From Paraspadella gotoi (lineage: Eukaryota > Animalia > Chaetognatha), in assembly GCA_051294375.1 (NCBI GenBank), contig JBJCIZ010000900.1, positions 1 to 17,334 on the forward strand: a stretch of DNA of 17,334 bases, written 5' to 3'. A program made the position numbers and the translations under genes. The notes beneath the pieces were generated by a model. The model was given only the letters and a program-made list of their open reading frames with translations. It was not told where the DNA came from and searched no databases. How positions within the stretch are numbered: position 1 is the first letter of the stretch; every line of letters starts with the position of its first letter. Below, piece after piece: positions 1-17,334 of this stretch.

Positions 1-691
1 GTAAATATTACCTCCCCAGATATGTCGTCCCATGAATCGATAATTGCCCAGTTTACCGACCTTTCCCGGACGCAACGTGTGGAAGAACGGAGGTACCTCG
101 CCTCCGATACGGATTTCGGGTATGCCTAAAAGTATATTATTCAATTCAAAGTCAGACGGTCCGGATTTTTTCTATTAATCAATGGACTAATTACATAAGT
201 TGTTGGATGTTAGCAATCTGGATAAAGATCATCCTTATTTACCCATAATGAAAATATAAAAGGATACTCTTTTCGAATGGCAAAAAAAGAACGAAAAAGT
301 TAATGGCAATGCAATTTAAGCATCGATCTACCCCAAACCAAAAATAGCCGCGCAGTTTGTCCCGGTGCTGAAGGCCAGCTTACAGTTTATTGACTTTCGA
401 CTATAAAAAAAGAGACTTATGAAAAAAGATTAGACTGAAAGGGTGCGATTAGCGCCGCGCGCGGCGGAAAAAAAAAATCGGTATGAAGGACTACGTGTAA
501 ATAAGTTATATTTTCAAATGTACCATATATATATCTGTTCTTACGTAGTCATAACATTTAATTGTACCTTGTTTGATATATCAAAAAAAGTTAAATCCTT
601 GCGACTTTAAAGTTTTGTCTTCCGTGAATGCAGTTAAAAAACTTGCCCTTTTAATCACCCCCATATTCAAAATACACCGAAAAAAGAATGA
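1..691 (+). CDS. polB: pPolB C-terminal fragment, copy A; frameshifted
   Basis: SDTD(S) at 103-117, LDVSNLDKDHPY (~203-240), RLKG (~432-444), LNPCDFK (~591-611), LPFNHPH (~643-665). Homologous to 9230-9883. The stop could be 691 or 782 depending on the true frame. Confidence 0.88.
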
Positions 692-947
692 TTGTTATGA
701 AAATCACCCCCCCCTCAAGAGAGACACAAGGAAATTTGGAGAAAAAAAAAAAAGAGGGAATAACTTTGACACACTTGTCTAAATATGTATATATAATATT
801 GTCTATCCATATATTATGTTTGCCAATTTATAATTTGTAAATATGTACATATGACTGAAATCGTTTACCGGTTTGTTTTTAGCGGTAAGTAGAGTAAAAA
901 ATGACAGAGAGCCTCTTTTTTGCTTCCATCGTAGCTAGCGCCTTCCC

Positions 948-1170
948 TGAGAGAAGAGACGAGAGAGAGAGAGAGGAGAGGGAGAGAGAGAGACGAATCC
1001 GATATTTCGAGATTCGAAAAGTTCAGAGAGATGAGATGAGAGAACGAGACGTAGGAAGAGGAGAGAATCGAAGACGAGATGACCTGAGAGAGAGGAGAGA
1101 GAGGAGAGAACGAGGAGAGAGACTGCAGAGGAAGCAGACAAGAGAGAGACGAGAGAGGAGAGAGAGAGAG
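948..1170. repeat. Imperfect (GA)n microsatellite tract
   Basis: Directly visible; counterpart at 10120-10350. Confidence 0.9.
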
Positions 1171-2032
1171 ATGTTTTCATCCCCAGACGATGACATTTCG
1201 TCATTTCGTAATTTAATACTCTTTTTTTGGCTGTTACCTTAACCGAACAATACGTTTTTCAAGACAGTGTGGTTGAGTGCACTCGGTCGATCTCGGTCGG
1301 TTCGAGGTCTCGGTCGGTTAGTAGACCGTTATGTGTTCCTTCTTCCTTTGCCCACATCTCTTCTAGAACGATTTTTTCGTAACCGTTGGAGACGATTCAA
1401 ACCGTAAAGATGTCTGGATCGAACGAAGAAAAAAATAAAAAGAATTTTGTTTAAATTTTTACATTTTATTATCAGTGTAGGAGAGGGGAAACTACTATGT
1501 ACAGAGAAACGAAAAAAAATAGAAAAACACGGTTTTTTATGATTTCTGGTTGAGGGAAAAAATACAATTAATCACATTATCGAAGAAAAAGACACCGAAA
1601 CATTTTTTTAGGATTTTCGAATGTGAAATATCATACAAAGAACTATTAGTAGATAATTTTTTTTGTTAAACAAATACGATACAAAGACATGTTAGTAGAT
1701 AATTTTGTTGTTAAATAGACGAAAATAGCAACAATTTTTTTTTTATTTTTTTTTTATTTTTAAGTTTTTTTGGTATTTTTTAATTTTTGGTTAGTGAATT
1801 ACATATATACAAACGATTTAGAAAAACGTGGTCCGTCCGAAGTTAAAATCTCTCAAGTAGACTGAACGAGAAACTGCTCGAGGCAAGAAGAAAACACTAT
1901 TAAAACGACCCACATTTCTAAATAATCGTCCGGAAATACCGTGTATAATGGTTAAAAGGGATTAAGTTATCGAAAACGAAGCGAACTTCGCGTCTGTACA
2001 AATACAATATATAAAATTCTATAAACATTTGG

Positions 2033-2165
2033 GAGAGAAGGAGAAAGAGAGAGAGAAGAGAGAGGAGAGGAGAGAGAGAGAGAGAGGGAAGCGAACAAAT
2101 TTTGTTAGTAAATTATTTATATACACATCGAAAACAACAATTTTTTAGTAAAATATTTTATATAC

Positions 2166-2201
<36 letters not shown>

Positions 2202-2330
2202 GAGAGAGAGAGAGACAAATTTTTGTTAGTAAATAATTTTTTGAATACAGGAGAGAAGAGAGAGAGAGAGAGAGAGAGGAAAGAGAGAGAAGAGAGACAA
2301 ATTTTGTTAGTAAAATATTTTTATAATTAC

Positions 2331-2365
<35 letters not shown>
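2033..2365. repeat. Compound tandem array: (GA)n + ACAAATTTTGTTAGTAAA..TTTATATACA units
   Basis: GTTAGTA core at 2104, 2225 and 2306, variant at ~2144, separated by GA tracts. Confidence 0.9.
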
Positions 2366-2371
2366 TGTGTA

Positions 2372-4680
2372 CCGAGAATTAAAGACGGCGTGGGTGTAAA
2401 GAGGCCACTTCGATGTCCGCCGGACCTCGTCCGCTTCCGCTTCCTCCGCGTCTTCGTCGAAAAGTTCCGGATCTCGTCGTCTCGTCGTCGTCGCCCTCGT
2501 CTATTGAGGAGGGCGCCTCGATCGTCCTTTCGCTCGTCCTCTTCGTAATCGGGGCCGCGGTCGTCGTCCTCTTCGTCGTCCTCTTCGTAATCGGGGGCCA
2601 CGTCGTTCTTGGCGGAGGCGGATCCCGGGGTGGTGGTGGTGCCGATGGTCTCGTTGGAGGAAGAGAGCGGGTCCCGGTTCTCTTTGTTGGCTTCCCGATC
2701 GTCCTCCTGGGGTAAGATCTCCCCGTCGTCGACGAGCCACTTCTCGGCGCGTTTGGGCGGTTCCGGGTTCCGATAAGAAGAAGCGTCGGAATCCCGGATC
2801 TTTCTCTTTTTCAAAGGGAGGAGACGTTCCACGGCCGAGTCTATGAAGCGGTCCGAGTCGTTGGCGAGAGGAGGAAAGGAGGAATAGGACGAAGAAGAAT
2901 GGCGCGGGAACGAGGAGGACGGTTGTTTCGTCGTCGCGACGCCGCGGGGGTCGATCTCGTCCTCCTCCTCCTCCTCCTCCTCTTCCTCTCCTCCTCGGGG
3001 AGGAAGCCGAAAAGAGACGGTCTTAACGGCCTTCCTCTTCTTCTTCATCGCCTCCTCCCCCTCCTCTTCCTCCTCCTCCCGCCCGCTCTTTCCCGTCGTC
3101 GGCGTCGCGTCGGTGCGTGCGCGATCGTCGCGTCGGCGTCTCGTCCGTCGCCGTGATCGATAGCGTGTACCGACGCAGGATGGGTTTAGCGCGGAATCGG
3201 GGCAGAATTCCAACGATAACGTTTGGGGGGGACGACTCCTTCCCCTCCGTCGTCGTCCAAGGGAGGAGGAGAGGGACGCTTCTTGCCGCGCCATCGTCGC
3301 CGACCTGACCGCTCGCAGCTGCAGTCGTCGTTCTCTCTCGACACACCTTTTCTCTGGCGATCAGAAGGCCGCCGGCCTGCGCGGTCGAGTCCATTCAGAT
3401 ACACGTCTGGCTCTCCTTCCTCCCTCTTCTTCTCCTCCCCCTCCACCGCCCTCCTCCGCCTTCTCTCTTCTTCGCGGGAACGGCGGGAACGGACTGGGGG
3501 ACAGCCTGACGGGATCTCGGTCACCGACGGGGGCAACGGATACCTGGCCCCGGCTTGCGCTACAGGTAGAGACCGTGGTGGGCAACGGGCCAACGGGCGT
3601 ACGGACAGTCCGCGGACGGGGTGTCCGGGCCGCCGCTCCTGCGCCCAGTGACGCCGCCCCCGCGCGCGCAGCGCACACGCCGGCAGCCATGCAGCGGCCC
3701 CCACGTCCCAGCCCAGACCAGCCGCCGGCCCCCGGCGGCCGACACCGGCGGAGGCAAGCTCTTAGAGTCGATTTTCGCGAACGCTTTTTGCCTTTCAGGC
3801 GGAAAGACGGGTCCTTTGGCGCTCCGGCTCCTTCTTCGTCGTCGTTCGTCGATCGTCGAAGCGAGGGCAGGACGACTCCCCGGGGGCGGCCGTGTCGCCG
3901 GGGTGAGTCGGAGAGACGTCGCTTCTTTTCCTTTTCCTTCTTCCCCCGCGACGAGGCACGCTTGTCGTAAGACCGGCGCGTCGGAGCACGGGAAGGGCTG
4001 TGAGCTGCGGACGAGCTGTCCGGCTGGTCCGGATCGTACCGAGGGCATAAGCTGAGTTACAGAGCGCAGGTATGGTAGGGAAGGGCGGCGGGGGGAGTGC
4101 GGAGGGCGGGAGACAGAAGATAGTGAGCTGGTGGCGGTAATCACAATGCTTCGCCCGACCCGGTGAGGGAGAAATGCAAGTTTGTTTCCGGTCGAATTTT
4201 CTTGGAGGGGAGGAGGCGACGACCTTGGAACGCGAAGGCTGAGTCCGCGACGAAGTTCTTCTTTCGTAGACGCGCTGACGGCCGCTGCTACCGCGAGCAC
4301 CCGCTTCATGACTTGACTGGCGGAAAAACATTCCTTGCCCTCCATCCTCTAGGCGGCGACGATCGAAGATGGCATCTTTTCGGTCGCCACGGGATTGCCC
4401 ATGGCGCTGAGTGGTCGTCATTTCGGCTTCAGGTCCGTCGGATCGTCATTCCGCGGCACAACTCGCGAAAAAGGATTTGGTCTGCTCTGTCTGCTGATTG
4501 CGCGTGGTTGGACTCGAACCGTTCTCGATGTCGCCTCTCCACATATATGCGTCGCCTCGAGCGTGTTCTCCTGTTGTCTCGGATCATCCTTCTGTCTCAG
4601 AGCTCATGCTCTCTTCCAGGCGAGCGTCAACACATGTTCCTCTCCTCGATCAGGGCTCCTTCAATCATTCGTAACCACTC
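2372..4680 (-). CDS. Copy A of the large hypothetical protein (disordered C-terminal two-thirds); 5' part lost at the gap
   Basis: ORF 2158-3294 holds the cleanest stretch (KTVSF..LPLKKRKIRD..EKWLVDDGEILP..NKENRDP..PDYEEDD). Colinear with 11620-13500. Confidence 0.6.
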
Positions 4681-4739
4681 GCTAGACATGGTTCCCTGCC
4701 TCGCCACGTCCATCAGTGTCCGTCCCGCATCCGCTTACT

Positions 4740-4764
4740 NNNNNNNNNNNNNNNNNNNNNNNNN
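4740..4764. other. Assembly gap (25 N)
   Basis: Run of N separating the two element copies. Confidence 1.
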
Positions 4765-7127
4765 AAAAAGAGAGAGATAAGGAAGTTGGAAGACGATGTT
4801 TTCGAAGAATAAATATTATAACAAACAATGTTGCAAAATTAAAGAAATATTAAATAAAAAAGAGATTTTTTAGCATTGGCGAGTTGAACGGCTATAAACA
4901 TATGTTTTTGACGAGGTCAGTACAATTACATTACGCACTGCCAAAACCACACAGAATAATACAAACAGGTCATGTATCAATAAATGAAAAACGTATTCAT
5001 CGATAACACCACTACTAAAATTACATTATAACCCCACATCATCAATTTCTATTTTTATCTTTCTTTATTTATTATGACGAATTTAGGAAGTAAAAAATTG
5101 TTAGAAAAATCGACTAATTATTACTGAACCTTGCGAAGATCTAACTCAAAGATGGGAATCAGTGAACATTAGACACTGACATTCATATCGCGACAATCGG
5201 TTTAACCTGACTCTCGGATGTTCAAAAATTTTCCGTAGCGTCAACAAAGGAGTGGCGGTGGCGCCGTCAAATGCGCGGCATGAATCGTAGAGATGCACGG
5301 GGGATGTCTCGAAGGCGTTTATAGAAGAGAACCTATGACAGTTTGGAGCGCGGGAGACAATAGAGCGAGAAGATCAGTTAGGAAGCGTGAACAGCGGGGG
5401 TGGAGGGGGGCGTGAAAGAGCTGGGAGGTTGGGTGGAAGGAAATGGAGGGATGGGGGATTAATTGTTTAGCACATGTTGTACGTTTCCCATTTGGATTTT
5501 ACTTAAGAAGCTTGAAAAGTATTTTTAAAATGGTGGTAATTTCTTTAATGTTTAAACTGTTTTTGCTTTTGGTGTTAAGCTATAATTCTTTATTCTTAAA
5601 TGTATATGATTTTTTCCCTCCTTACCTCTTTCTTTATTCCTCTATTTTGTACTTCTCTTTTAATTCATTCAGTCATTCAATGTATTAATTTATTCATTCA
5701 CATCTTTTTGTTTTTTTTATTTCACTCTTTCTTCTTTTATTTTCTCTTCTACTCTCTCTTATTCCTTCTTTCCTTCTTTTCATTCTCCTTCTTCCTTAAC
5801 TCTCTGCTTCCTTCTTTTCACTTCCTTCCTTTCCCTCCCCACATCCCACATCCCTACATCCCAAGCTCCCCCCTAACCGACCAGCAGCACTGGCTTCCGT
5901 TCTGGAGATAAGAGCATTATTCAGATCAACTCGTTGAACTGAATCGCTTCCGCTGTAAACTTGGATGATGTGAAAGAAAAAAGGTTGGACTCGATGTCAC
6001 GTTCGGGGAAGCTTGTTGGGCGGCTCGAGCAGGCCCTTATTCTTCTTCGCTCAAGAGACGGACGAATCGGAATGACTGATCATGTCGAATATAGACGAAA
6101 AGGGCCCGAGTTGGAGAGGAACCTTACGTTCACCGGACACAATGAACTTTTCGGAACATCGCTGGAGTTGGGAAATTTTGATGGGGTTGGAGGAGAAAAG
6201 GGGGATGGATTTGGGTGGGCGATGAGGATACTGTGATTAGAATATTTGATTGATTTATTGAAATTTATTGATTGATGAATTGAATTGTTGATTGGAAATA
6301 TGATTGATGAGGTTGATTGATTGATTAATTGAATAACTTCTTGTGCTCAATGTAATGAAGCACATCAATTAAAATGCAGGGATTGTTAAGTCTAGGGGAC
6401 GGCTAATATGGTTTAATTGCAGATATATGAAGGTGCATATAGTTGGAGAAAAACATATATGTATGTGTTTGGTACATATTTTAATGATCATGTGTTGGGA
6501 GTTTAATTGTTTCAATAACTTCGATCATATTTGTGGTAAATGAAAAACTTTGAAATAAATATCTTAATTTTTCTAACCATTCACATGACACTATTCCCGC
6601 CATAAATCAATATATGTCCTCTTCCACCTTTAGCCATAACTACAAAACCACTTTCCGCTCATAAACATTTCTCATCCCTTTCCCCCGCCGCACTATCGGA
6701 CGATCCTTCTGTATGCATCTGTTTGTTCTTTACAAACTATATCCTCGTTTAAGTTGACGAAGGCGCAATTCCGAAGATGGACATTTGGAAATTCTGTGTG
6801 TGCGCGAACTCGTTGGAGTTCAGAATCGATCAATATGAGTCGATTGGGCACTCGATCTTGATGTTGGGCCAGATGGAGGACGATGACAGTCTTGCGGTGT
6901 ATCTTGGGGGGGGGAGGGAGGTTAAGGGGGAGGGCTTTTGGATTTGTGTAATAGGTTTTGATATTCTGATTAATTTATATGTTATTTTTATTTTAATATT
7001 TGATTGGTCATTTATTACTTGAATTGTCTTGATTTTTCATCATTGTATTTTATTTTATTTTTATTGTTTTTGATTTGGTTTAATGGCTTACATTTATTGA
7101 TAACCTTTTGGAGTGAGAGAAGAACCA
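4765..7127 (+). CDS. polB: Probable N-terminal part of the same pPolB (terminal-protein/vOTU-like region, Zn finger, ExoI); very degraded
   Basis: Weak but correctly ordered remnants: NKGSG(W) (~5243-5262), NCLAHVV (5461-5481), EHYSDQLVELNRF (5912-5950), TDHVEY and NLTFTGH (within ORF 5961-6236), YCD(L)E ExoI-like (6229-6243). Several need a 1-2 nt correction. Confidence 0.5.
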
Positions 7128-9883
7128 ACCGTGTGGAAGATGGACACCGGGGTGGGAGAACTTATTAAGCTTATTTGTCTTTTTCAGCAACTTATAAAAA
7201 ATGTAAAAAATACTTCACTATTTTATCTTTGTTGTAGATTGTTTACTGTTTTTATTTAATGTATATTTCTCTTTTAGTTTTTTTCCTTTTTTTTTGATAT
7301 TTTTTATAAGAGTTAGAGCTTTGGGAGTGATCCGAATTTGGAATAATCTCATAAATATTCAACATTAAAAAAAGGAAAAAAAGTAGATTAAATAAATCCT
7401 AATTAGACTCGAATCACAGCAGAAAATTAATGTCACTGACGATTAACTGAGAGAAAAACCTTTTATTTTTCATATTTCCTTGATTTTCGTAACTTTGTTT
7501 CGCTAATTTTCGTTTTTATATGCTTCTAGTTTCTAACTATTAGTCAAACTGTGTCTCTAAAAGGTAAATGTTATGTTTTTTTGATTGGTACACAATATAT
7601 AAATAGGAGTTTTATAAAAAACGAAAGGAAAAAATCCTGTAAAGAGTGTAAACGATGAGGCCTTTTCGCTCGTCGATTTCGTGTAACTACTTAATTTTGA
7701 GAGCCTGGACTCTAGTGAGTAAATAAGTCGAAAATAATACTTGCGACTCGTTGGGCGAAAAAGGATCGGAACCCCCCTGCCCAAATGCGCAAAGAGACTA
7801 AAAGGAAAAATTTTTTTTACTCTATCAATTGTAAAGAGTAATAATTATGATGAATCCTAGCCCGCTTCCTCAGAAAGCAAACTTTTTCTACATTTTCTTC
7901 AGGGGTGAAGTGTTACAAAGACGGAATTCCCTAAGCAGAAGATTTCTATTCACGAACTCAAACGAAAAAACATTTCGGAGAGTGACTATCAGGAAGCTTA
8001 GACTGTATAATGAATTAAAATGCAAAAAACTTGGGAGAGAACGCACAATTTATGTAAAATTGGACACCATTCTATATTAGACAATATCGTTATTTAAAAA
8101 GAATTATATCTATATTTAAATTAGACATAACTCGTTATTTATTCGTTACCAGTCTTCGCATTTTGACGCTTGTAAGTATAAATCTAACGTAAAATTAGAA
8201 TGCATAGATCCATCGATATTTACAAAAGAAATTCGCCGATCCATACGGGTGGTTGGTCGGGTTTTTCGTGAATTACGCTCAATCGAAGGACGAATTAATT
8301 TACCAAACCCATACGGGAGATATCGCTAAAATAAGCGATAAATAATTAGAGGAAGCGGAAAGAATTTAATTTTAAGCTAAAAAATCATACCAATCGGGAG
8401 GAGCATCGATTCGGAGAACAGGAGGAAGGGAAGGAAGGAGGAGGAAGGGGTGAAGAAATTTGCGAGGTCTGAGATATCACTCAATCTCTTTACGATTCTC
8501 TCGATTTTGCCTTAGCATCAACTCTTTATATGCCATATATTTATTAAATATAATTGCCTTACGCGGGGTTTCGATATTTAAGGGGTCGGAGAATGAAGAA
8601 ATTAAAAGAGAGTTTTAATCAATTCCGGTAATAATATAGATAATTTTGGTAATATAGGTTATTTCTCTTAATGTGGATTAGTTTCACAGAAAGAGGGAAG
8701 CATTTGTTCGACGTGTTCCCCTGACCGAAAACAGAATCGGGACGACGAACTGTCCCCATTCACTAAGATTCTTATGGCTAAAACGGAACAAAAATGCTAA
8801 AGTTCAAAAATTAATTGTAGATTTAACAAGAAAAAAAATTATCTCATACATTTCCTTTTTCTTAAGTATTTGCTGACAGAGAGAGTGAAACTGACCAGAG
8901 AGTCAATATATATTATTTTTTTTCGCCAAAAGGTGCTGTTTCGAGAGTTCGTGCAGGGAATTGGACCTAAGGGAAAATCTAAGAGCAAAATACAATGTTC
9001 TAGAGCAAATTGTATCTCGAAGTAATAACAGGCAAGTTAGTGGGGCGGAGGGACAAATTTAAGGCTAATTATTAAGTTATTACATAGCGAGAGGGAGGGT
9101 TGAAGACATATCACGACAGCCTTAATCGACCGACATGATCCTATCAAAAAATTGCATTTACGCAAAATCTTACAACAAAAAGGTACTGTGGACGATGTAT
9201 CTTTACGGGTGCGCTGTGTTAGACCTTTCGAAATATTACCTCCAGATATGCTCCATGAATCATATTGCCAGTTTCCGCACCTTCCCGGGAACGACAACGT
9301 GAGAGTCTCTCTCCGATACAGATTCGGTATGCCTAAAAGTATTATTCAATTCAAAAGTCAGACGGTCCGGATTTTTTCTATAACAATGGCTAAATTACAT
9401 AAGTTGTTGGAGTTTAGCAACTGGATAAAGATCATCCTTATTTCACCCATAATGAAAATATAAAGGATACTCTTTTTCGAATGGCAAAAAAAAGAACGAA
9501 AAAGTTAATGGCAAATTTAAGATCGATCTAACACAAACCAAATAGCCGCGCAGTTTGCCGGTTGAAGGCCAAAGCTTACAGTTTATTGACTTTCGACTAT
9601 AAAAGAGGACTTATGATAAAAAGATTAGACTGAAAGGGTGGATAGCGCCGCGGCGGAAAAATACGGTATGAAGGTAATGATACGTAAAATTTATATTTTT
9701 CAAAATGTACAATATACTAAATATGTTCGTTACGTAGTCATAGACATTTAATGTACCTTGTTGAATTATCAAAAAAAGTTTAAATCCTTTGCGACTTAAA
9801 GTTTTTCTCCGTGAATGCAGTTAAAAAACTTGCCCTTTAATCACCCCCATATCAAATACACCGAAAAAAAGATGTTGTATTGA
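7128..9883 (+). CDS. polB: Protein-primed DNA polymerase B (pPolB), exonuclease/polymerase core; heavily frameshifted in this assembly
   Basis: Frame-corrected motifs occur in the expected order: FSLVDSCNYL (~7663), EFPKQEDFYS..ISESDYQEA..ELKCK.LGE (~7925-8040), SIRGG (~8240), motif A AL(D)INSLYA..LPYAGFRY (~8510-8580), QKLIVDL (~8805), motif B-like KLYLEVITGK (9007-9036), GCAVLDLSKY (~9208), motif C SDTDS (9312-9326), SNLDKDHP..GKFK..GLKAKAYS..RLKG (~9415-9640), LNPCD..LPFNHP (~9780-9850). These match my recollection of Polinton pPolB consensus blocks. Confidence 0.92.
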
Positions 9884-10119
9884 AATACCCCCGCCCTCAA
9901 AGAGAACACAAGGAAATTTTGGAGAGAAAAAAAGAAGGGGAGAAATAACTTTGACACACTTGTAAATAGTATATAAATATTGTCTATCCCATAATTATTT
10001 GTTTGCCAATTATAATTTTAAATATATGTACATATGACTGAATCGTTAGCGGTTTTTTACCTAGTAAAAAAAATGACAGAGAGTCTTTTTTTCTCGATTG
10101 CAGCTAGCGCTCCCTGAGC

Positions 10120-10223
10120 GAGAGAGAGAGAGAGGAGAGAGGAAGAGAGAGAGAAGAGAGAGAGGAGAGAGGAGAGAGAAGAAGATGCGAAATACAGAGC
10201 ATTTCGAGATTCGAAAGTTCAGA

Positions 10224-10283
<60 letters not shown>

Positions 10284-10305
10284 TTCGAGAAAGAAGTTCA
10301 CAGAG

Positions 10306-10345
<40 letters not shown>

Positions 10346-10350
10346 AGAGA
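10120..10350. repeat. Imperfect (GA)n microsatellite tract with two GATTCGA..AAGTTCA inserts
   Basis: Directly visible; inserts at ~10208 and ~10282. Confidence 0.9.
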
Positions 10351-11188
10351 TTAATCTCCGACGATGACATTTCGTCATTTCGTAATTTAATACTCTTTTT
10401 TTTTTTTTTTGCTGTTACCTGAACCGAAACAATACGTTTTTCGAAGACCGTTGGTTGGTGACTCGGTCGATCGGTCGGGTCGTCGGTCGGTTACGACACG
10501 TTTTCCTTCTTCCTTTTGCCCATCCTTCTCTTAGAACGATATTTTTCGTAACCGTTGAGACGATTCGACCATAAAATGTCTGGTCGAGACGAAGAAAAAA
10601 TAAAAAAGAATTTGTTAAATTTTTACATTTTTATTATCAGTGAGTGAGAGGGAAACTACTATGTACAGAGAAACGAAAAATAAGAGAAAACACGGTTTTT
10701 TTATGATTCTGGTTGAGGGAAATACAATTAATCATCATTTATCATTATCAAGAAAGACACCGAAACATTTTTTTAGGATTTTCGAATGTGAAAATATCAT
10801 ACAAGAACTATTAGTAGATATTATTTGTTAAACAAATACGATACAAAGACATGTTGTAGTAATAATTTTGTTGTTAAATAGACGAAATAAAGCACAATTT
10901 TTTATTTTATTTTTTTTTATTTTTTTAAGTTTTTTTGGTATTTTTTAATTTTGTGTTAGTGAATTACATATATACAAACGATTTAGAAAAACGTGGTCCG
11001 AATTAAAAATCTCTCAAGTAGGCTGAACGAGAATCTTCGAGGCAAGAAGAAAAAATATTATTAAAAGACACATCATTTATATCGTCCGGAATACCGTGTA
11101 TAATGGTTAGAATGGGATTAAGTTATCGAAAACGAAGCGAACTTCGCGTCTGTACAAATACAATATATAAAATTCTATAAACATTTTG

Positions 11189-11189
<1 letters not shown>

Positions 11190-11247
<58 letters not shown>

Positions 11248-11362
11248 AGAGTGGACAAATTTTTGTTAGTAATTATTTATATATAACACCGAAACAACAA
11301 ATTTTGTTAGTAAAATATTTTTATATACAGAGAGAGAGAGAGAGGGGAAGAGAGAGAGAGAG

Positions 11363-11405
<43 letters not shown>

Positions 11406-11550
11406 GGGAGGTGGACAAATTTTTGTTAGTAAATTATTTATATACCACCGAAACAACAATTTTGTTAGTAAAATATTTTATATACAGAGAGAGAGAAGGA
11501 GAGAAGAGAGAGAGAAGAGAGGACAAATTTTGTTAGTAAAATATTTTTAT

Positions 11551-11614
<64 letters not shown>
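11190..11614. repeat. Compound tandem array: (GA)n + ACAAATTTTGTTAGTAAA..TTTATATACA units
   Basis: GTTAGTA core at 11265, 11306, 11425, 11464 and 11532. Confidence 0.9.
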
Positions 11615-11616
<2 letters not shown>

Positions 11617-11619
11617 TGT

Positions 11620-14600
11620 ACGAAATTAAGACGGCGTCGGGTGTAAGAGGCCACTTCGATGTCCGCGGCGACCTCGTCGCTTCCGCTTCCTCCGCGTCTT
11701 CGTCGAAAAGTTCCGGATCTTCGTCGTCGTCCGTCGTCGTCGCTCGTCTATGATGAGAGCCCCTCGATCGTCGTCTTCCTCGTCCTCTTCGTAATCGGGG
11801 CGCGGTCGTCGTCCTCTTCGTCGTCCTCTTCGTAATCGGGGCGCCCTCGTTCTTGGTGGAGGCGGATCCCGGGGTGATGATGGTGGGTGGTGGTGGTGCC
11901 GACGGTTTCGTTGGAGGAAGAGAGCGGATCCCGGTTCTCCTTGTCGGCTTCTCGATCGTCCTCCTGGGGTAGGATCTCCCCGTCGTCGACGAGCCACTTC
12001 TCGGCGCGTTTGGGCGGTTCCGGGTTCCGATAAGAAGAAGCGTCGGAATCCCGGATCTTCTCTTTTTCAAAGGGAGGAGACGCTCACGCCGAGTCTATGA
12101 AGCGGTCCGAGTTCGTCGCGGAGAGGAAGGAAAGGATGAATAGGACGGTCGTTTCGTCATCGCGACGCCGCGGGGATCGATCTCCTCCTCCTCCTCCTCT
12201 TTCCTCTCCTCCTCGGGGAGGAAGCCGAAAAGACGGTCTTGGCGGTTTCTTTCATCTTCCTCGTCGCCTCTCCTCTTCCTCCTCCGTCCACTCTTCCGTC
12301 GTGACGTTGTGTCGTCGTCGCGATCGTCGTCGTCTGTCGTCGGCGTCGGTTGATCGATAGCGTACCGACGTAGGATGGGTTTCGCTTCGGAATCGGGCAG
12401 AATTCCAACGATAACGCTTGGATGGCACGACTCCTTCTCCTCGTCGTCCAAGGGAGGAGGGAAGAGGGGCGTCTTGCCGGCCATCGTCGCCGACCTGACC
12501 GTCGCAGTCGTCGTTCTCTCTCGACGACCTTTCTCTGACGATCGAGAATGCCCCGCCGTCGAGTCCAGTTCGATCCTCCTCGTCCTCTTCTTTTCCTCCT
12601 CCTTCGCTCCCTCCACCGCCTCCTCGCCTTCCTCTTCTTCGAAGCGGGAACGGGGAACGGGGGAACTGGGGAACGGGGGAACGGGAGACGGGGAACGGGG
12701 GAACGGGGAATGTCGCGGCCGGCCCCGGCCCCGGCCCGGCGCGCAGCGCCCGAGCCAAGGCCCACGCGCCGCCCCGCGGCCGAGCCAACGCCACGCCGCC
12801 CCCGGCGGCCGACACCGGCGGAGGCAAGCTCCTATCGTCGATTTTGAACGCTTTTTGCCTTTCCAGGCGGAAGAGACGGGTCCTTTGGCGGCTCCGGCTC
12901 CTTCTCGTCGTCGTCGTCGTCGAACGAGGCAAGACGAGTCCCCGGGGGCGCCGCTCGCGGGGGTCGAGTCGGAAGAGACGTCGCTTCTTTTCCTTTTCTT
13001 CCCCCCGCGACGCGTTGTCGAAGACGGCGCGAGACGGAAGAGGCGGAGGCGGGCGAGCTTCGGCGGTCCGGACGACGGAGAAGCTGAGGAAGAGGACGAA
13101 GGGATGGTGGGAAAGGGAGAGAGGCGGAGGCGGGGGGAGAAGAGAAGTGGGTGGGGGAATCGTGAGGGGCGAAATAAGTTTTGTTCGTCGAATTTTTCTT
13201 GGGGGGGGAGGACGATTGGAAAGAAGGCTGAGTCCGCCGACGAAGTTCTTTCTTTCGTAGACGCCGACGGCGTTACGAGTCAATTCATGATGGCACGGGG
13301 GAAAAACATCCCTCTCTGGCGGCGAGGTCGAAAGTGCGCCGGATGCAGGCGGATCGTCGGCCGTAGGATCGTATTCCCGCACAAGTCGCAAAAGGATTTG
13401 GTCTGTCGGTCGCGATGACGATGCTGACTCGACTCGAACTGCAAGAACTGCTCGATCTTCCAGGCGACGTTCTCTCTCAGTTCTAAATTCGTAACCCTTG
13501 GGAAAAGAGGGAGATTTGGGGATGACGAGATGCCGTGCCGTCCCCGAAATGATCGTTATCCCTCGAACGGGGATCCCTTCCCCGAAAATCCTTCCGAGTA
13601 ATCCTGAGATCGGATCTGGAGTAATGAGCTATTTTGAGGGGGGAAAAACCCTTCGGGACGGATCGTTTCTCCCGTACTCTACGGTTACGAAGACCCCCTG
13701 GTCGCGGAAAGCGGGTAAAAACTCCCCTCTTTCAGGTAAAGCTCGTTGGCTCGAACGATATCGGCCGGGGTCACCTGACCGGTGAAATCGTTTCTGTTCG
13801 AGGTTCTCCGGTCTCGTCGTCGATATCGTTCAAATGCGCCGCCCACTGAGTGTTTTCGGCGAAGCTCGAACTTATCTTATCGAAGTTATTGAACAGACGC
13901 ACCACTCGCCGAAGGAGATTCCCACGTTCTGCTTGAATAGCAGCGCGGTCGACCTCCGTCGACGACATTACCCTCTTTTCGAACGAGAGTCCGGAATTAC
14001 GGATTTTGATGAGGATCTGCTCCCCGATAGCGAATTCACGTTCGGTCTGCTCAATCCGAATTCCAAACTCCCGCCGTTACCGAGGCGATCTCTTTTTACT
14101 TTCGCTCTCCCCCTTAACCCTTCGGTATTTTTCCCCATAACGACCACGTGACCGTTCGGTCAAGGTTCCCTTCTTCAACGTACCGAAAGCGCGCTCCCGT
14201 CGCGCGCAGTTTCCCGCTGCCGTAAAAGTTCTGGCTGGAAGAGGGGGGTCCGACGTCGACCTTTCCGGCGTGAAGATGATGATCCTTCAACGCCTTCGTG
14301 AGATTGGAGTCGGCGAGAATCGGGCGTCGTTGTTTCGTAGCCCCCGATCCATGGGCGAGTTGAGGAAGCCGGCTCCGCCGCCAATTTGGTTGACGACGGA
14401 CTTGGCGGTGGATTTCCCTTTGAAAAAGAAGAATCCTTGCTTCCCCTTGGAGCGCGATGTCGGCGGCGTTCCCGGTCTCCCGACCCCCGCCGCTGCGGAA
14501 GTCGAAGCGCCGGAAGTCGACGCGGTGAGGAGGTTCGCTCGACGGCTGGACGCGGACACGGCGAGGAGCGACGTAACGGGTTTTTATTTTACCCACCGCC

Positions 14601-14683
14601 ATGGCGAAAGCCGATTTCCGGGTGCCGGAAACCGGGCGGAAGCATGGCCTGGTCTAGACTCGTCGTAGAAAGGCCTTGACCAT
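11620..14683 (-). CDS. Large hypothetical protein (about 1000 aa): basic N-terminus, two PC4-like repeats, long disordered Pro/acidic tail; frameshifted
   Basis: Continuous GC-rich coding-like tract assembled from overlapping minus ORFs (14114-14602, 14287-14559, 13771-13968, 12095-12616, 11465-12070). The tail frame is supported by synonymous differences from copy A. Start may be ATG 14683 (A-rich context) or 14602. It could be two genes, and the 3' end may be spliced. Confidence 0.6.
12645..12710 (+). repeat. G-rich 7-8 nt tandem repeat (GGGGAAC)n, about 9 units, inside the large gene
   Basis: gggaacggggaacgggggaactggggaacgggggaacgggagacggggaacgggggaacggggaa; encodes a Pro-rich stretch on the minus strand. 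Confidence 0.85.
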
Positions 14684-15167
14684 TTATATTATTTCTTTAC
14701 TTTCTTTATTGATCGAGAAAGGGAGAGAAAGCGGAGTAAAGGACGAAGTTTTTTTCGCTATGCTCGAGTATTAGGCGAAGAAAAAAAGAGAAGGACGATT
14801 TTTTTGACACTCGTCGAATGTCCGATTCGAGATCGAGTGTCGGAATTGGGATTGGAGTTTAGTCTTATTTTCTTTTTCGAAAGGTGATGAAAATTGATTC
14901 GTGAAAAGAAAAATAGCGCGAGTGGAAAGTTTTCGCTCTCCACGATCGAATTTAAAGAGAAGACGTGCCTGGCGGGCGTTTCTCGGCGGGGAACGAGCGC
15001 CGGAGTGGCAGAGGGCCGGCGTTCACGCGCGTGACTGGGCGCGGGGGCAGGCGCGGCGCGAGGACGATGAAGAGAACGATGGAGGGAAACGCTATTAATT
15101 TTTTTTGTCTACGACGCCGTCGAAGACGGGAAGAGGACGAGGATTCCAAAGATCGACGACGACGGTC

Positions 15168-15172
<5 letters not shown>

Positions 15173-15214
<42 letters not shown>

Positions 15215-15257
15215 TCGTTAATTTTCGATCGGTGACGAAAGGACGGCGGTCGAGGGC

Positions 15258-15337
<80 letters not shown>

Positions 15338-15347
15338 TCGTTAATTT
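15173..15347. repeat. Two (GA)n tracts each followed by GCGTCGTTAATTTT
   Basis: Motif at ~15212 and ~15335; the second overlaps the stop codon of the basic-protein gene. Confidence 0.85.
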
Positions 15348-15994
15348 TTGGCGACGACGGAGTTCGTTTTCACCGAAGGAGGAGAAGAGGAAGAGGACGA
15401 CGGCGGTGAAACTCGGCGGCCTTCTCTGAGAACGCAAGCGAAGGACGCCTGGAGGGTTTTGAGAAGTTCGATGGTAAAATTAACGAGATATTCTCTGCTC
15501 AAGCCGCGCATGCGCCGACCGATCTTTTTAGATTTTATAGGCGGGACAAATAAGTACCTAGTCGACTCATCTTCGTTAGCCCGGCTCTTTGAGCGAGAGT
15601 CGTTTGTAGAGGAACGCTTAGATCCCTCCTGGGAGCTCGAAGATCCGTTAGCGGCGCTTCCACGACGCCCGTTCCCGCATTTCTCTTTCTTCCTTTCCCC
15701 CTTGATTTTGCCTTGATCCCCCCGCCCCCGCGCCCGACGAGGTTCTTTCTGGCTCTTGTTATTTCAGCGCGCGGGAGATTTCTTTCCCCCTTTTCCTCTT
15801 TGAGACGCCGTTTTTTTTGCCCTCCGCCTCTCTGCGGCTTTCGTGCGACGCGAAGTTCCACTCAATTTGACGACGGCAGCAGTCGATCTTGGTCCCGACG
15901 CCGAGCTCGATGTTTGCGGTTCTTCGCCATGGCCTTGAGATATACTGCTTTCGAATTGATTGATTTTCCGACACACCGCGGTTTCTTCATTCAT
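15341..15994 (-). CDS. Hypothetical Arg/Lys/Gly/Ser-rich basic protein, about 210 aa; frameshifted
   Basis: Stitching ORFs 15764-15994 and 15535-15861 to the frame ending TAA at 15341-15343 gives MNEETAVCRKINQFES..RRAKKRRLKEEKG..LVGRGGGG..YLFVPPIKSKKIGRRMRGLSREYLVNFTIELLKTLQASF..VVAKN*. It is a GC-rich island bounded by GA tracts. Confidence 0.55.
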
Positions 15995-16014
15995 AATAAA
16001 GGAAAGAAAATAAA

Positions 16015-16069
16015 AGAGAGATGAAGAGAGAGAGGAGAGAGTAGAGAGAGAGAGAGGAGGAAGAGAGAG
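16015..16069. repeat. Short imperfect (GA)n tract between protease and basic-protein genes
   Basis: Directly visible. Confidence 0.8.
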
Positions 16070-16094
16070 CGCTGTAGTAAAAATTCGAAAAAAA

Positions 16095-16640
16095 TTAACT
16101 CGTGTGGAGAAAATAAATTATTGTTTCTTCGAATTTAAAACCTCGATGAAATAAAATTAGATACGAAAACGTCGTTTTATATACGGTGTAGAAGTATATA
16201 TTTTGTTTAATATTCGCTAATGCAGGAAGAAGTCTCTGCTGCGAAGAAATACAAAAAAAATAGACATATGTAGTCCGCAGAAGAAGCACATTTTCCCTTG
16301 TATCAATTTATCGTTTATATACGATTCTCCGCGAGCAGACGCTTTCAAGATGGAATCGAAGGCGAGGATCGGGCTGGTCTGGCGGATTCCCTAGCGGATC
16401 CACGATTTTCTAGTAAAATTAGGCGCGTTTAAACTCGAAATAGTTTATCCAGTGCCGGTACCGCCGCGAGATGCCTTTTTGCGTGTTGTTAAGCGTGGTA
16501 GCAAGCGATTCTAGTTTAGAATAGATGAAAGCTGGTATGGTTATTATTGTGAATTAGCCAATGCGCCTTAGTTTCCGGATGGAAGGGGAAATAGTAAGCG
16601 AATCATAGGCGATCGGAGAACAGATGACCTAATGAAATTG
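16095..16640 (-). CDS. Adenain-like (Polinton PRO) cysteine maturation protease; frameshifted
   Basis: HW (His codon 16452-16454), VDPLGNPP (Asp 16398-16400) and in-frame INDKLIQGKMCFFCGLH with Q-x6-C (Gln 16298-16300, Cys 16277-16279). This is the adenain His-acid-Gln-Cys order and spacing. Start is approximate. Confidence 0.8.
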
Positions 16641-17334
16641 GATGCGAGGAATATTAGAGAGTATAGAGACAATGGATAGGTAGGATGCGCGGTTCAATGC
16701 GGGCCAGGCAGACGAGAGTCGATGGGTAATAGGAGAAAAAAGGACAAGAAGGTGGTCCGCTGATGAGTAGAGGGTGTCGGTTTTTTTTCGTTACGCTGTT
16801 GAGACATTGTGGTTTTTCGTGCCTGCTTTGGGAAATCTTTGTTGTTCGCTTGGTATCTTCTTGATATTGCGGCTGAAATTTTTTTTTAGGCAGCATTTAT
16901 AATTTTTAGCAGGAGTACATAGCGTCTCTTTGGATGGAATTTATGGAATTAGAGTTTGTCCGGCGATTAGAAAATAGAAGGTGATAGACCCAGTAAAAGT
17001 TGATTACTATTGTTGGGGAGATTCGGAGACGCCGAATTCTGCGGAGCGTTAATGGTTGGGCGCAGGCGGCGGAATTTGGGTAAAACAGATGAATGTCGGG
17101 TCGACGTGCTGGGGGGCATTTCGAAGGGTGGTGGCATGATCACGTGTAACCTAGCGCTGTGGCGTAATACTTTGCGCGTAGTCTTAATGTGCGATGGACG
17201 GATGGGAATGTGCCGTTGGAAATAAAGTGCGTGGGCCACTGCATTCGGCAGCTGAAGATAACGATAGGGATAAGTCCTGTCGATCCGGCAATTCGGCTGC
17301 GCTTCGTCGTCGATAGCCGAAATGCGGAGTAAGG
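16640..17334 (-). CDS. Probable A32/FtsK-type genome-packaging ATPase, C-terminal part; frameshifted, truncated by window edge
   Basis: In-frame INFYWVYHLLFSNRRTNSNSINSIQRDA, then YVLLLK (~17005-16900), resembles the Polinton ATPase block N.SV....QNLF....RTISLNA.Y.VLFK. PFSYY.IDSR..LYSNI (~16745-16650) resembles PY.YL.ID...LRTNI. Walker A/B not seen. Position next to the protease fits. Confidence 0.45.

What the first reader, a model, noticed from the sequence alone, without database searches (positions are those of the whole stretch)
2372..3190. Polinton protein tail packed with host cell-cycle and phosphatase docking motifs
Seen: within about 270 aa of low-complexity tail, in order, KPILRR (3170-3187), KKKRKAVKTVSF (KTVSF 3010-3024), RLLPLKKRKIRD (~2792-2827), NKENRDP (KEN 2677-2685; DKENRDP at 11934-11942 in copy B) and, at the end, RRRLNF (11622-11639 in copy B). 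Established: a SILK-type motif followed by RVxF is the usual PP1-docking pair, [DN]KENxxP is a KEN-box APC/C degron, and RxLxF is a cyclin-docking motif. Inference: this is a motif-mimic regulator, functionally like adenovirus E1A/E4 or adintovirus oncoid ORFs but with no LxCxE that I can find, which may couple element replication to the host cell cycle. Short motifs arise by chance, and KTVSF has lost 2 nt in copy B. The argument rests on their clustering and on KPILRR and KEN being kept through synonymous changes.
Basis: partly seen in the sequence, partly recalled or inferred. Interest (0 to 1): 0.78.

Follow-up and report, generated by a model that had tools for sequence, protein, structure and literature searches.

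The report
Polinton tail with host docking motifs
A repeated DNA element with Polinton-type polymerase and protease genes carries a protein-coding, predicted-unstructured tail whose short motifs likely recruit a host gene-silencing complex and a phosphatase and likely tie the protein's own destruction to the cell cycle, though no binding has been tested.

Summary
The motifs are at the stated places, and the tail is a real gene. In short-read contigs from four public runs, 18 of 26 variant sites examined are silent in its frame. The element is Polinton-like: PolB and protease pieces score above controls. [DN]KENRDP is a full KEN box, kept by silent changes. KTVSF fits a strict PP1 RVxF but is intact only in copy A. 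KPILRR fails the SILK consensus and is off-frame. RRRLNF occurs only in copy B and is a common chance pattern. The motif that most diverged contigs span was listed but not interpreted: PLKKRK. It matches the PLKKR motif through which Drosophila repressors bind the Ebi/Smrter (TBL1/NCoR) co-repressor, but it could be only a nuclear localisation signal, and one variant class changes its leucine. Best reading (0.45): a nuclear motif hub that recruits co-repressor and PP1 and is removed by APC/C, rather than a driver of the cell cycle. No homologues were found. It has no LxCxE or CR1, so it is not an oncoid in the strict sense. New variant of a known kind; interest 0.5.

The parts
2503..3099 (-). 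Open in-frame stretch of the tail ORF, copy A (199 aa, acidic and basic, predicted disordered)
   Evidence: charge-hydropathy 0.33 against a boundary of 0.457; 18 of 26 variant sites silent; the mirror plus frame has a stop in both copies
2720..2883 (-). Core block shared without gaps with diverged family members (about 86% DNA identity): SDRFIDSAVERLLPLKKRK...PKRAEKWL
   Evidence: table 8: records with 19-23 other letters and 0 gaps over 136-161 nt that then run on as unlike sequence
2800..2817 (-). PLKKRK: candidate Ebi/TBL1 (Smrter/NCoR) docking motif, also a possible nuclear localisation signal
   Evidence: PMC9890238 and PMC13385800 (passages); spanned by 13 of 17 diverged listed contigs; one variant class changes the leucine codon
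2668..2688 (-). NKENRDP: full [DNE]KENxxP KEN box with acidic residues upstream
   Evidence: PMC5717348 (passage); listed variants are silent or N to D; spanned by 3 of 17 diverged listed contigs
3010..3024 (-). KTVSF: RVxF-type PP1 docking candidate, preceded by KKKRK (3031-3045)
   Evidence: broken in copy B; contigs give no cover here because 2947-3088 was skipped as repeat
3170..3187 (-). KPILRR: kept by silent changes, not a SILK consensus, off-frame from KTVSF in the window
2522..2606 (-). 42-nt tandem repeat giving PDYEED(D/E) twice
3191..4484 (-). Likely upstream continuation of the same low-complexity ORF in copy A; frame broken many times, start not found
   Evidence: blocks shared with copy B
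11620..13500 (-). Copy B of the tail ORF, broken by frame changes: RRRLNF 11622-11639, LIIDE 11743-11757, KEN 11934-11942, PLKKR 12059-12073, KPILRR 12365-12382; the upstream limit is approximate
7912..9844 (+). Polinton-type PolB, catalytic half, in four colinear broken pieces; converges on the tail ORF
   Evidence: 32.8, 21.4, 45.3 and 28.6 bits against controls of at most 18.3, 15.0, 19.4 and 17.1; profile seed carries Pfam DNA_pol_B_2
16150..16457 (-). Polinton-type maturation protease (adenain-like), profile positions 45-137 of 138, broken
   Evidence: 30.9 bits against controls of at most 18.6
197..261 (+). End region of PolB in copy A (weak alone; supported by DNA likeness to copy B)
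   Evidence: 20.9 bits against controls of at most 17.6
2101..2365 (.). Array of AT-rich units and (GA)n tracts right behind the end of the tail ORF (also 11188-11614)

Best explanation
The tail is the coding, predicted-disordered end of an accessory gene of a multi-copy Polinton-like element, and it likely works in the nucleus as a motif hub: PLKKRK would bind the Ebi/TBL1 subunit of the Smrter/NCoR co-repressor, KTVSF would dock PP1, and the KEN box would make the protein an APC/C substrate that is cleared in late mitosis and G1. Shown: the coding frame and selection on it, the Polinton context, and KEN and PLKKRK in one frame. Inferred: every binding step, nuclear location, and the purpose, most simply to dampen host or element transcription while cells are in S/G2. 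The cell-cycle link is timing of the protein's own life, not forcing the cycle. No DNA-binding domain was identified, so targeting would be through partners or through the unresolved N-terminal part.
For: Frame: 18 of 26 examined sites silent, 17 of 26 at third positions (p 0.0008), against 3-7 silent in four other frames; the mirror frame (16 silent) has a stop in both copies. Gaps in contigs over 2629-2946 number 0 or 3 (26 of 26 records). Three strict motifs in one 199-aa frame have shuffle rates of 0.0023, 0.0044 and 0.00047; 0 of 1,408 open frames from 120 Polinton-motif loci hold two such types. PLKKR repressive domains pull down Smr, Ebi and HDAC3 in Drosophila cells (PMC9890238, passages); MeCP2 PIKKRKT and SETD5 PLKKWKS bind TBLR1 (PMC13385800, passages). 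13 of 17 diverged listed contigs span PLKKRK. KEN consensus with upstream acids: PMC5717348 (passage).
Against: No binding or expression evidence. A PLKKR-containing stretch was predicted and tested as a nuclear localisation signal in VZV ORF16 (PMC11061344, one passage). Three co-occurring letters change the leucine codon in one variant class, which fits a basic import signal better than the co-repressor motif. Only 3 of 17 diverged contigs span KEN and none covers KTVSF; these contigs repeat across runs and are not independent, and only 32 of 335 records and 40 of 66 variant rows were shown. KTVSF is broken in copy B. The patterns were chosen after seeing the sequence, and the shuffles do not correct for the many motif classes one could have tried. 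No homologue outside this organism, so no deep conservation test was possible.
Confidence: 0.45

Rival explanations
1. The protein is a real but non-regulatory accessory or core protein (for example a basic and acidic DNA-packaging or scaffold protein). Its basic clusters are import signals and the other motifs are chance.
For: Basic clusters are frequent in such a composition (K[KR]x[KR] 0.30 per shuffle). The leucine of PLKKR changes in one variant class. The stretch without listed replacements, YRNPEPPKRAEKWLVDD, holds none of the named motifs. Loose KEN plus loose RVxF occurs in 1.1% of shuffles.
Against: The matches are to the strict consensus forms, jointly 0.00001 for KEN and RVxF. The position before KEN varies only between N and D, the two residues the consensus prefers. 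A mostly acidic 199-aa stretch is a poor DNA-condensing protein (inference).
Confidence: 0.27
2. One reading: a cell-cycle regulator that docks cyclin through RRRLNF, PP1 through a SILK-RVxF pair and APC/C through KEN, and so pushes or holds the host cycle in a state that suits element replication, like HCMV pUL21a or E1A.
For: The order and the spacing of about 48 codons between KPILRR and KTVSF fit the usual SILK-before-RVxF layout (recalled). KPILRR is kept by 2 silent changes of 2 changed codons. Four loose motifs together occur in 0.0008 of shuffles when SILK is relaxed to allow P. pUL21a is a precedent for an RxL plus APC activity (PMC3873445, abstract).
Against: KPILRR fails [GS]IL[RK]; one search listed 2 papers, and the passages read from one of them gave no P variant. 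RRRLNF is in B only, A has a stop after RRL, B's frame runs on into the (CT)n repeat, and strict RxL arises in 31% of shuffles. No LxCxE or CR1. One KEN box without a D box or ABBA motif in frame suggests a substrate rather than an inhibitor (inference from PMC5717348).
Confidence: 0.23
3. The tail is non-coding repeat DNA or a read artefact, and the motifs are accidents of GC-rich open frames.
For: All three minus frames are largely open, the window is indel-rich, and no homologue was found.
Against: Third-position bias, in-frame gaps and contigs identical to copy A.
Confidence: 0.05

Closest known systems
Adintovirus (Polinton) Oncoid proteins (PMC8502044, passages and section 3.1; PMC11071296, passages)
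   Same: Accessory ORF of a Polinton-like element, recognised only by short linear motifs and without detectable homologues.
   Different: No LxCxE, no CR1, no verified CXXC pair; lies downstream of PolB and converges on it, whereas Oncoids typically lie upstream. The motifs point at Ebi/Smrter, PP1 and APC/C, not Rb.
PLKKR/NID co-repressor docking motif of Drosophila Snail and other repressors, MeCP2 and SETD5 (PMC9890238, PMC13385800, passages)
   Same: PLKKRK matches PLKKR and P[IL]KK[RW]K in a predicted disordered region.
   Different: Encoded by a virus-like element; no DNA-binding domain identified; one variant class changes the leucine; binding untested.
Adenovirus E1A (recalled; Rb motifs as described in PMC8502044)
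   Same: Disordered nuclear motif hub, by inference engaging co-repressors.
   Different: No Rb motifs and no PxDLS; no sequence relationship shown.
HCMV pUL21a (PMC3873445, abstract)
   Same: Viral protein that touches both APC and a cyclin through short motifs.
   Different: pUL21a degrades its targets and has a proven RxL; here the RxL is in one copy only and KEN more likely marks the protein itself.
HSV-1 ICP34.5-type viral PP1 adaptors (recalled; ICP34.5 seen only as a reference title in PMC11728760)
   Same: RVxF-type PP1 docking candidate.
   Different: No Pfam match of any kind, so no GADD34-like domain; nuclear context.

Membership tests
Polinton / adintovirus | Protein-primed type B DNA polymerase | tested here: met
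   Four colinear pieces at 7912-9844, all above controls; profile seed is Pfam DNA_pol_B_2
Polinton / adintovirus | Adenain-like maturation protease | tested here: met
   30.9 bits against at most 18.6; profile built from ORFs of the same loci, named a protease from recalled motifs (no Pfam hit for the seed)
Polinton / adintovirus | rve integrase with chromodomain | tested here: inconclusive
   No score clearly above controls in the regions tested; the window does not hold a whole element and is indel-rich
Polinton / adintovirus | Packaging ATPase, hexon and penton | tested here: inconclusive
   None clearly above controls; profiles come from one clade picked by a single penton motif
Polinton / adintovirus | OTU domain at the N-terminus of PolB | tested here: inconclusive
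   Profile positions 1-560 give 19.7 bits against controls up to 18.4
Polinton / adintovirus | Terminal inverted repeats | tested here: inconclusive
   No long inverted repeat among the 25 longest of 53 pairs shown; the element's ends are probably not in the window
Polinton / adintovirus | Multi-copy family in the host genome | tested here: met
   Two copies in the window and several diverged variant classes within single runs
Oncoid (strict, PMC8502044) | LxCxE with CK2 site | tested here: not met
   No LxCxE in any minus frame of A 2372-4739 or B 11620-13500
Oncoid (strict, PMC8502044) | CR1 motif (DEN)(LIMV)xx(LM)(FY) | tested here: not met
   No match; only the bare LFD at 2456-2464 and 11702-11710
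Oncoid (strict, PMC8502044) | Paired CXXC next to the motifs | tested here: inconclusive
   One CXXC at 13379-13390 in B only, frame unverified
Oncoid (strict, PMC8502044) | Typical position upstream of PolB | tested here: not met
   The ORF lies downstream of PolB and converges on it
PP1-interacting protein | RVxF motif | tested here: met
   KTVSF fits the loose and a recalled strict pattern in copy A; broken in B
PP1-interacting protein | SILK motif [GS]IL[RK] | tested here: not met
   KPILRR has P at the first position
PP1-interacting protein | Motif-dependent PP1 binding | not testable with these tools
   No host PP1 sequence came from any call
APC/C KEN-box substrate | [DNE]KENxxP after acidic residues, in a disordered region | tested here: met
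   EDDREA[ND]KENRDP in both copies
APC/C KEN-box substrate | KEN-dependent degradation | not testable with these tools
   Needs a cell or extract assay
Cyclin-docking protein | RxL motif in the coding frame | tested here: inconclusive
   RRRLNF in B only; stop after RRL in A; no listed contig spans it
PLKKR / TBL1-docking repressor | P[IL]KK[RW] motif | tested here: met
   Both copies, contigs identical to A; leucine changed in one variant class
PLKKR / TBL1-docking repressor | Ebi/TBL1 binding and repression | not testable with these tools
   Needs pull-down and reporter assay

The most novel reading that the evidence does not exclude
A Polinton encodes an Rb-independent counterpart of E1A: a fast-evolving disordered protein that recruits the Smrter/NCoR-HDAC3 co-repressor through a mimicked PLKKR motif together with PP1, and is switched off by APC/C in G1, so that a virus-like transposon reprogrammes host chromatin only in cycling cells.
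Probability: 0.22. Interest if true: 0.78.

Novelty: new variant of a known kind. Interest (0 to 1): 0.5.

Why it matters
How Polintons act on their animal hosts is almost untested; the described candidates are Rb-type Oncoids and anti-apoptotic genes (PMC8502044). A tail that docks Ebi/TBL1, PP1 and APC/C would add a different class of host targets. It suggests a simple screen: scan unannotated Polinton ORFs for PLKKR, KEN and RVxF, not only LxCxE. Five paper searches listed no title or abstract start on such motifs in a Polinton protein; most listed papers were not opened, the library lacks most subscription papers, and I did not read the Oncoid supplements of PMC8502044 or PMC11071296, which may hold similar ORFs. 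Short peptides from the contig-verified stretch make the claim directly testable.

Tried and rejected
Homologue searches for the tail found nothing: 1,383 candidates, none at E 0.01, lengths 269-2000 only; phmmer over 1.84 billion representatives gave 1 hit, a tandem-repeat protein from unnamed records with 30% identity over 56 aa and none of the motifs, rejected as chance; metagenome and viral contigs; PDB. Pfam: 0 of 29 frames; 13 short pieces gave only hits below cut-off. Protease piece: no hit. The 13500-14670 region: no hit. A recalled penton pattern found nothing in viral contigs. Single-sequence tblastn of 1,408 frames gave only E of 0.003 or worse; crude clusters gave nothing; short-window chaining missed PolB. 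Penton, K/R-rich, core, hexon, integrase and ATPase assignments that I made by eye were not upheld above controls. No whole genome is held. Expression: no RNA holder listed; run X9 is only guessed to be RNA and also covers the spacer between the genes, so it says nothing on expression. Contig depth peaks at 2726-2755, but depth cannot rank parts of a gene and was not used. Earlier findings: four look-ups returned nothing. PMC11296320 (passages) held nothing relevant. No fold or complex prediction was run: the stretch is predicted disordered and no host partner sequence came from any call.

Full report
What the window is. It holds two diverged, error-rich copies of part of a repeated element. 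Bases 3-3502 align with 9231-12674 at 80.3% identity, with 504 gap letters against 228 mismatches; a 25-base N run at 4740-4764 ends copy A. Contigs from four public runs of one organism cover 25 of 30 bins of 9000-17334, stop at about 16500, and differ from the window at 299 indel places and 331 substitution places. Most frame breaks are therefore likely read errors, though I did not resolve them one by one. The host is likely an insect, judged only from the CpG-rich, (GA)n-rich composition (inference). No whole genome is held.

Is it a Polinton? Pfam, PDB, Atlas and word-based searches failed on the broken frames. I fetched 120 metagenome loci with a recalled penton pattern. One of them, L009, carries Pfam DNA_pol_B_2, rve plus chromodomain, and Pox_A32, and profiles were seeded largely from it. 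With breaks scored as X, the PolB profile matches 7912-9844 (+) in four colinear pieces: 32.8, 21.4, 45.3 and 28.6 bits, against reversed and shuffled controls of at most 19.4. The protease profile matches 16150-16457 (-) at 30.9 bits against at most 18.6. Integrase, ATPase, hexon and penton did not rise clearly above controls. The label Polinton-like is earned; full membership is probable but not complete. The tail gene converges on the end of PolB across about 1.8 kb of AT- and GA-rich spacer. It does not lie upstream of PolB, where Oncoids typically sit (PMC8502044, passage).

Is the tail coding? Yes. One search listed 40 of 66 variant sites in 2366-3260. I dropped 14 that lie in the gapped tandem-repeat part (2512-2636) and examined 26 in 2646-2848. 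Of 32 listed records (335 in all), 26 lie within 2629-2946, and all have 0 or 3 gaps; six are letter-identical to copy A and cover 2629-2724 and 2731-2946. The 199-aa open stretch falls on the disordered side of the charge-hydropathy boundary (0.33 against 0.457).

The motifs one by one. KEN: [ND]KENRDP after EDDREA meets the full [DNE]KENxxP consensus with upstream acids (PMC5717348, passage). Listed variants are silent or N to D. Only 3 of 17 diverged records span it. RVxF: KTVSF is in frame with KEN in copy A and fits a strict pattern that I recalled. It is broken in B, and the contigs give no cover because that stretch was skipped as repeat. KPILRR: kept by two silent changes, but it fails SILK, [GS]IL[RK] (PMC11728760, passage), and is off-frame from KTVSF in the window. 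RRRLNF: copy B only; A has a stop after RRL; B's frame runs into the (CT)n repeat; such patterns arise in 31-99% of shuffles. PLKKRK: present in both copies, in frame with KEN in A. Drosophila repressive domains with PLKKR pull down Smr, Ebi and HDAC3, and Snail binds Ebi through YxxCPLKKRP (PMC9890238, passages). MeCP2 PIKKRKT and SETD5 PLKKWKS bind TBLR1 (PMC13385800, passages). It lies in the block 2720-2883 that diverged family members share without gaps at about 86% identity before running on as unlike sequence; 13 of 17 diverged records span it. These records repeat across runs and are the longest kept, so the count is a hint. Against it: one variant class changes the leucine codon, and a PLKKR stretch was predicted and tested as a nuclear localisation signal in VZV ORF16 (PMC11061344, one passage).

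Chance. In 100,000 residue shuffles of the open stretch, strict KEN appears in 0.0023, strict RVxF in 0.0044, both in 0.00001, and P[IL]KK[RW] in 0.00047; loose KEN plus loose RVxF appears in 0.011. None of 1,408 open frames from the 120 loci, coding and non-coding alike, holds two strict types. The patterns were picked after seeing the sequence, so the true surprise is smaller, but three strict matches in 199 aa remain unusual.

Mechanism. Best reading (0.45): a nuclear motif hub that recruits the Ebi/Smrter co-repressor and PP1 and is removed by APC/C in late mitosis and G1. The coding status and context are shown; all binding and the purpose are inferred. Whether all five motifs share one frame stays open.

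Comparison and novelty. It works like an Oncoid or E1A in being an accessory motif hub, but it is not an Oncoid in the strict sense: no LxCxE, no CR1, and a different position. In the loose sense of PMC11071296 (passage), where the class is defined only by motifs of interest, it would qualify. No homologue was found. Paper searches listed no title or abstract start on PLKKR, KEN or RVxF in a Polinton protein; most listed papers were not opened and supplements were not read. Verdict: new variant of a known kind, interest 0.5.

Noticed in passing
window 2101-2365 and 11188-11614: Array of AT-rich units alternating with (GA)n tracts between the converging PolB and tail genes. TTTGTTAGTAAA occurs 9 times with up to 1 mismatch against 0.14 expected; on the minus strand it reads TACTAAC followed by a pyrimidine tract, like a branch point. 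Function unknown.
   Followed up: partly
window 12109 to 13897: One contig each in runs X1 and X9 joins the PLKKR block to 13897 with 87 letters on the short side, skipping 1,787 bases: a diverged or internally deleted family member that may lack the KPILRR and KTVSF region.
   Followed up: no
window 2725-2776 (minus): YRNPEPPKRAEKWLVDD has four listed variants, all silent, and matches no motif I know; it may be the real functional core.
   Followed up: partly
window 11743-11757, 2456-2464, 2821-2835 (minus): Further weak motif leads from recalled patterns: LIIDE (SUMO-interacting-like, copy B), LFD in an acidic run (partial pocket-protein motif), and AVERL just before PLKKR (AAxxL Sin3A-like).
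   Followed up: no
window 3203-3242 and 12398-12437 (minus): EGVVP(P/S)KRYRWNS block kept between copies with 3 silent and 1 replacing change, in a third frame just upstream of KPILRR.
   Followed up: no
window 13500-14670: GC-rich stretch that looks coding; strand and identity unresolved. A penton-like match on the plus strand at 14294-14434 (16.3 bits) is not above controls; Atlas recognition 2386 with no usable hit.
   Followed up: partly
window 15400-16000 (minus): Lysine- and arginine-rich broken frames that resemble a Polinton small basic protein by eye; 19.5 bits against controls up to 20.9.
   Followed up: partly
window 16457-17334: The protease match lacks profile positions 1-44 and contig cover ends near 16500: a junction, insertion or assembly join.
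   Followed up: no
window 4765-7600: Sequence after the N run was not assigned; no Polinton profile scored clearly above controls there.
   Followed up: partly
L009:1-12284: Near-complete Polinton gene set in a metagenome contig (PolB, ATPase, integrase, and by recalled motifs penton, hexon and protease), with a gene order unlike the window's.
   Followed up: partly
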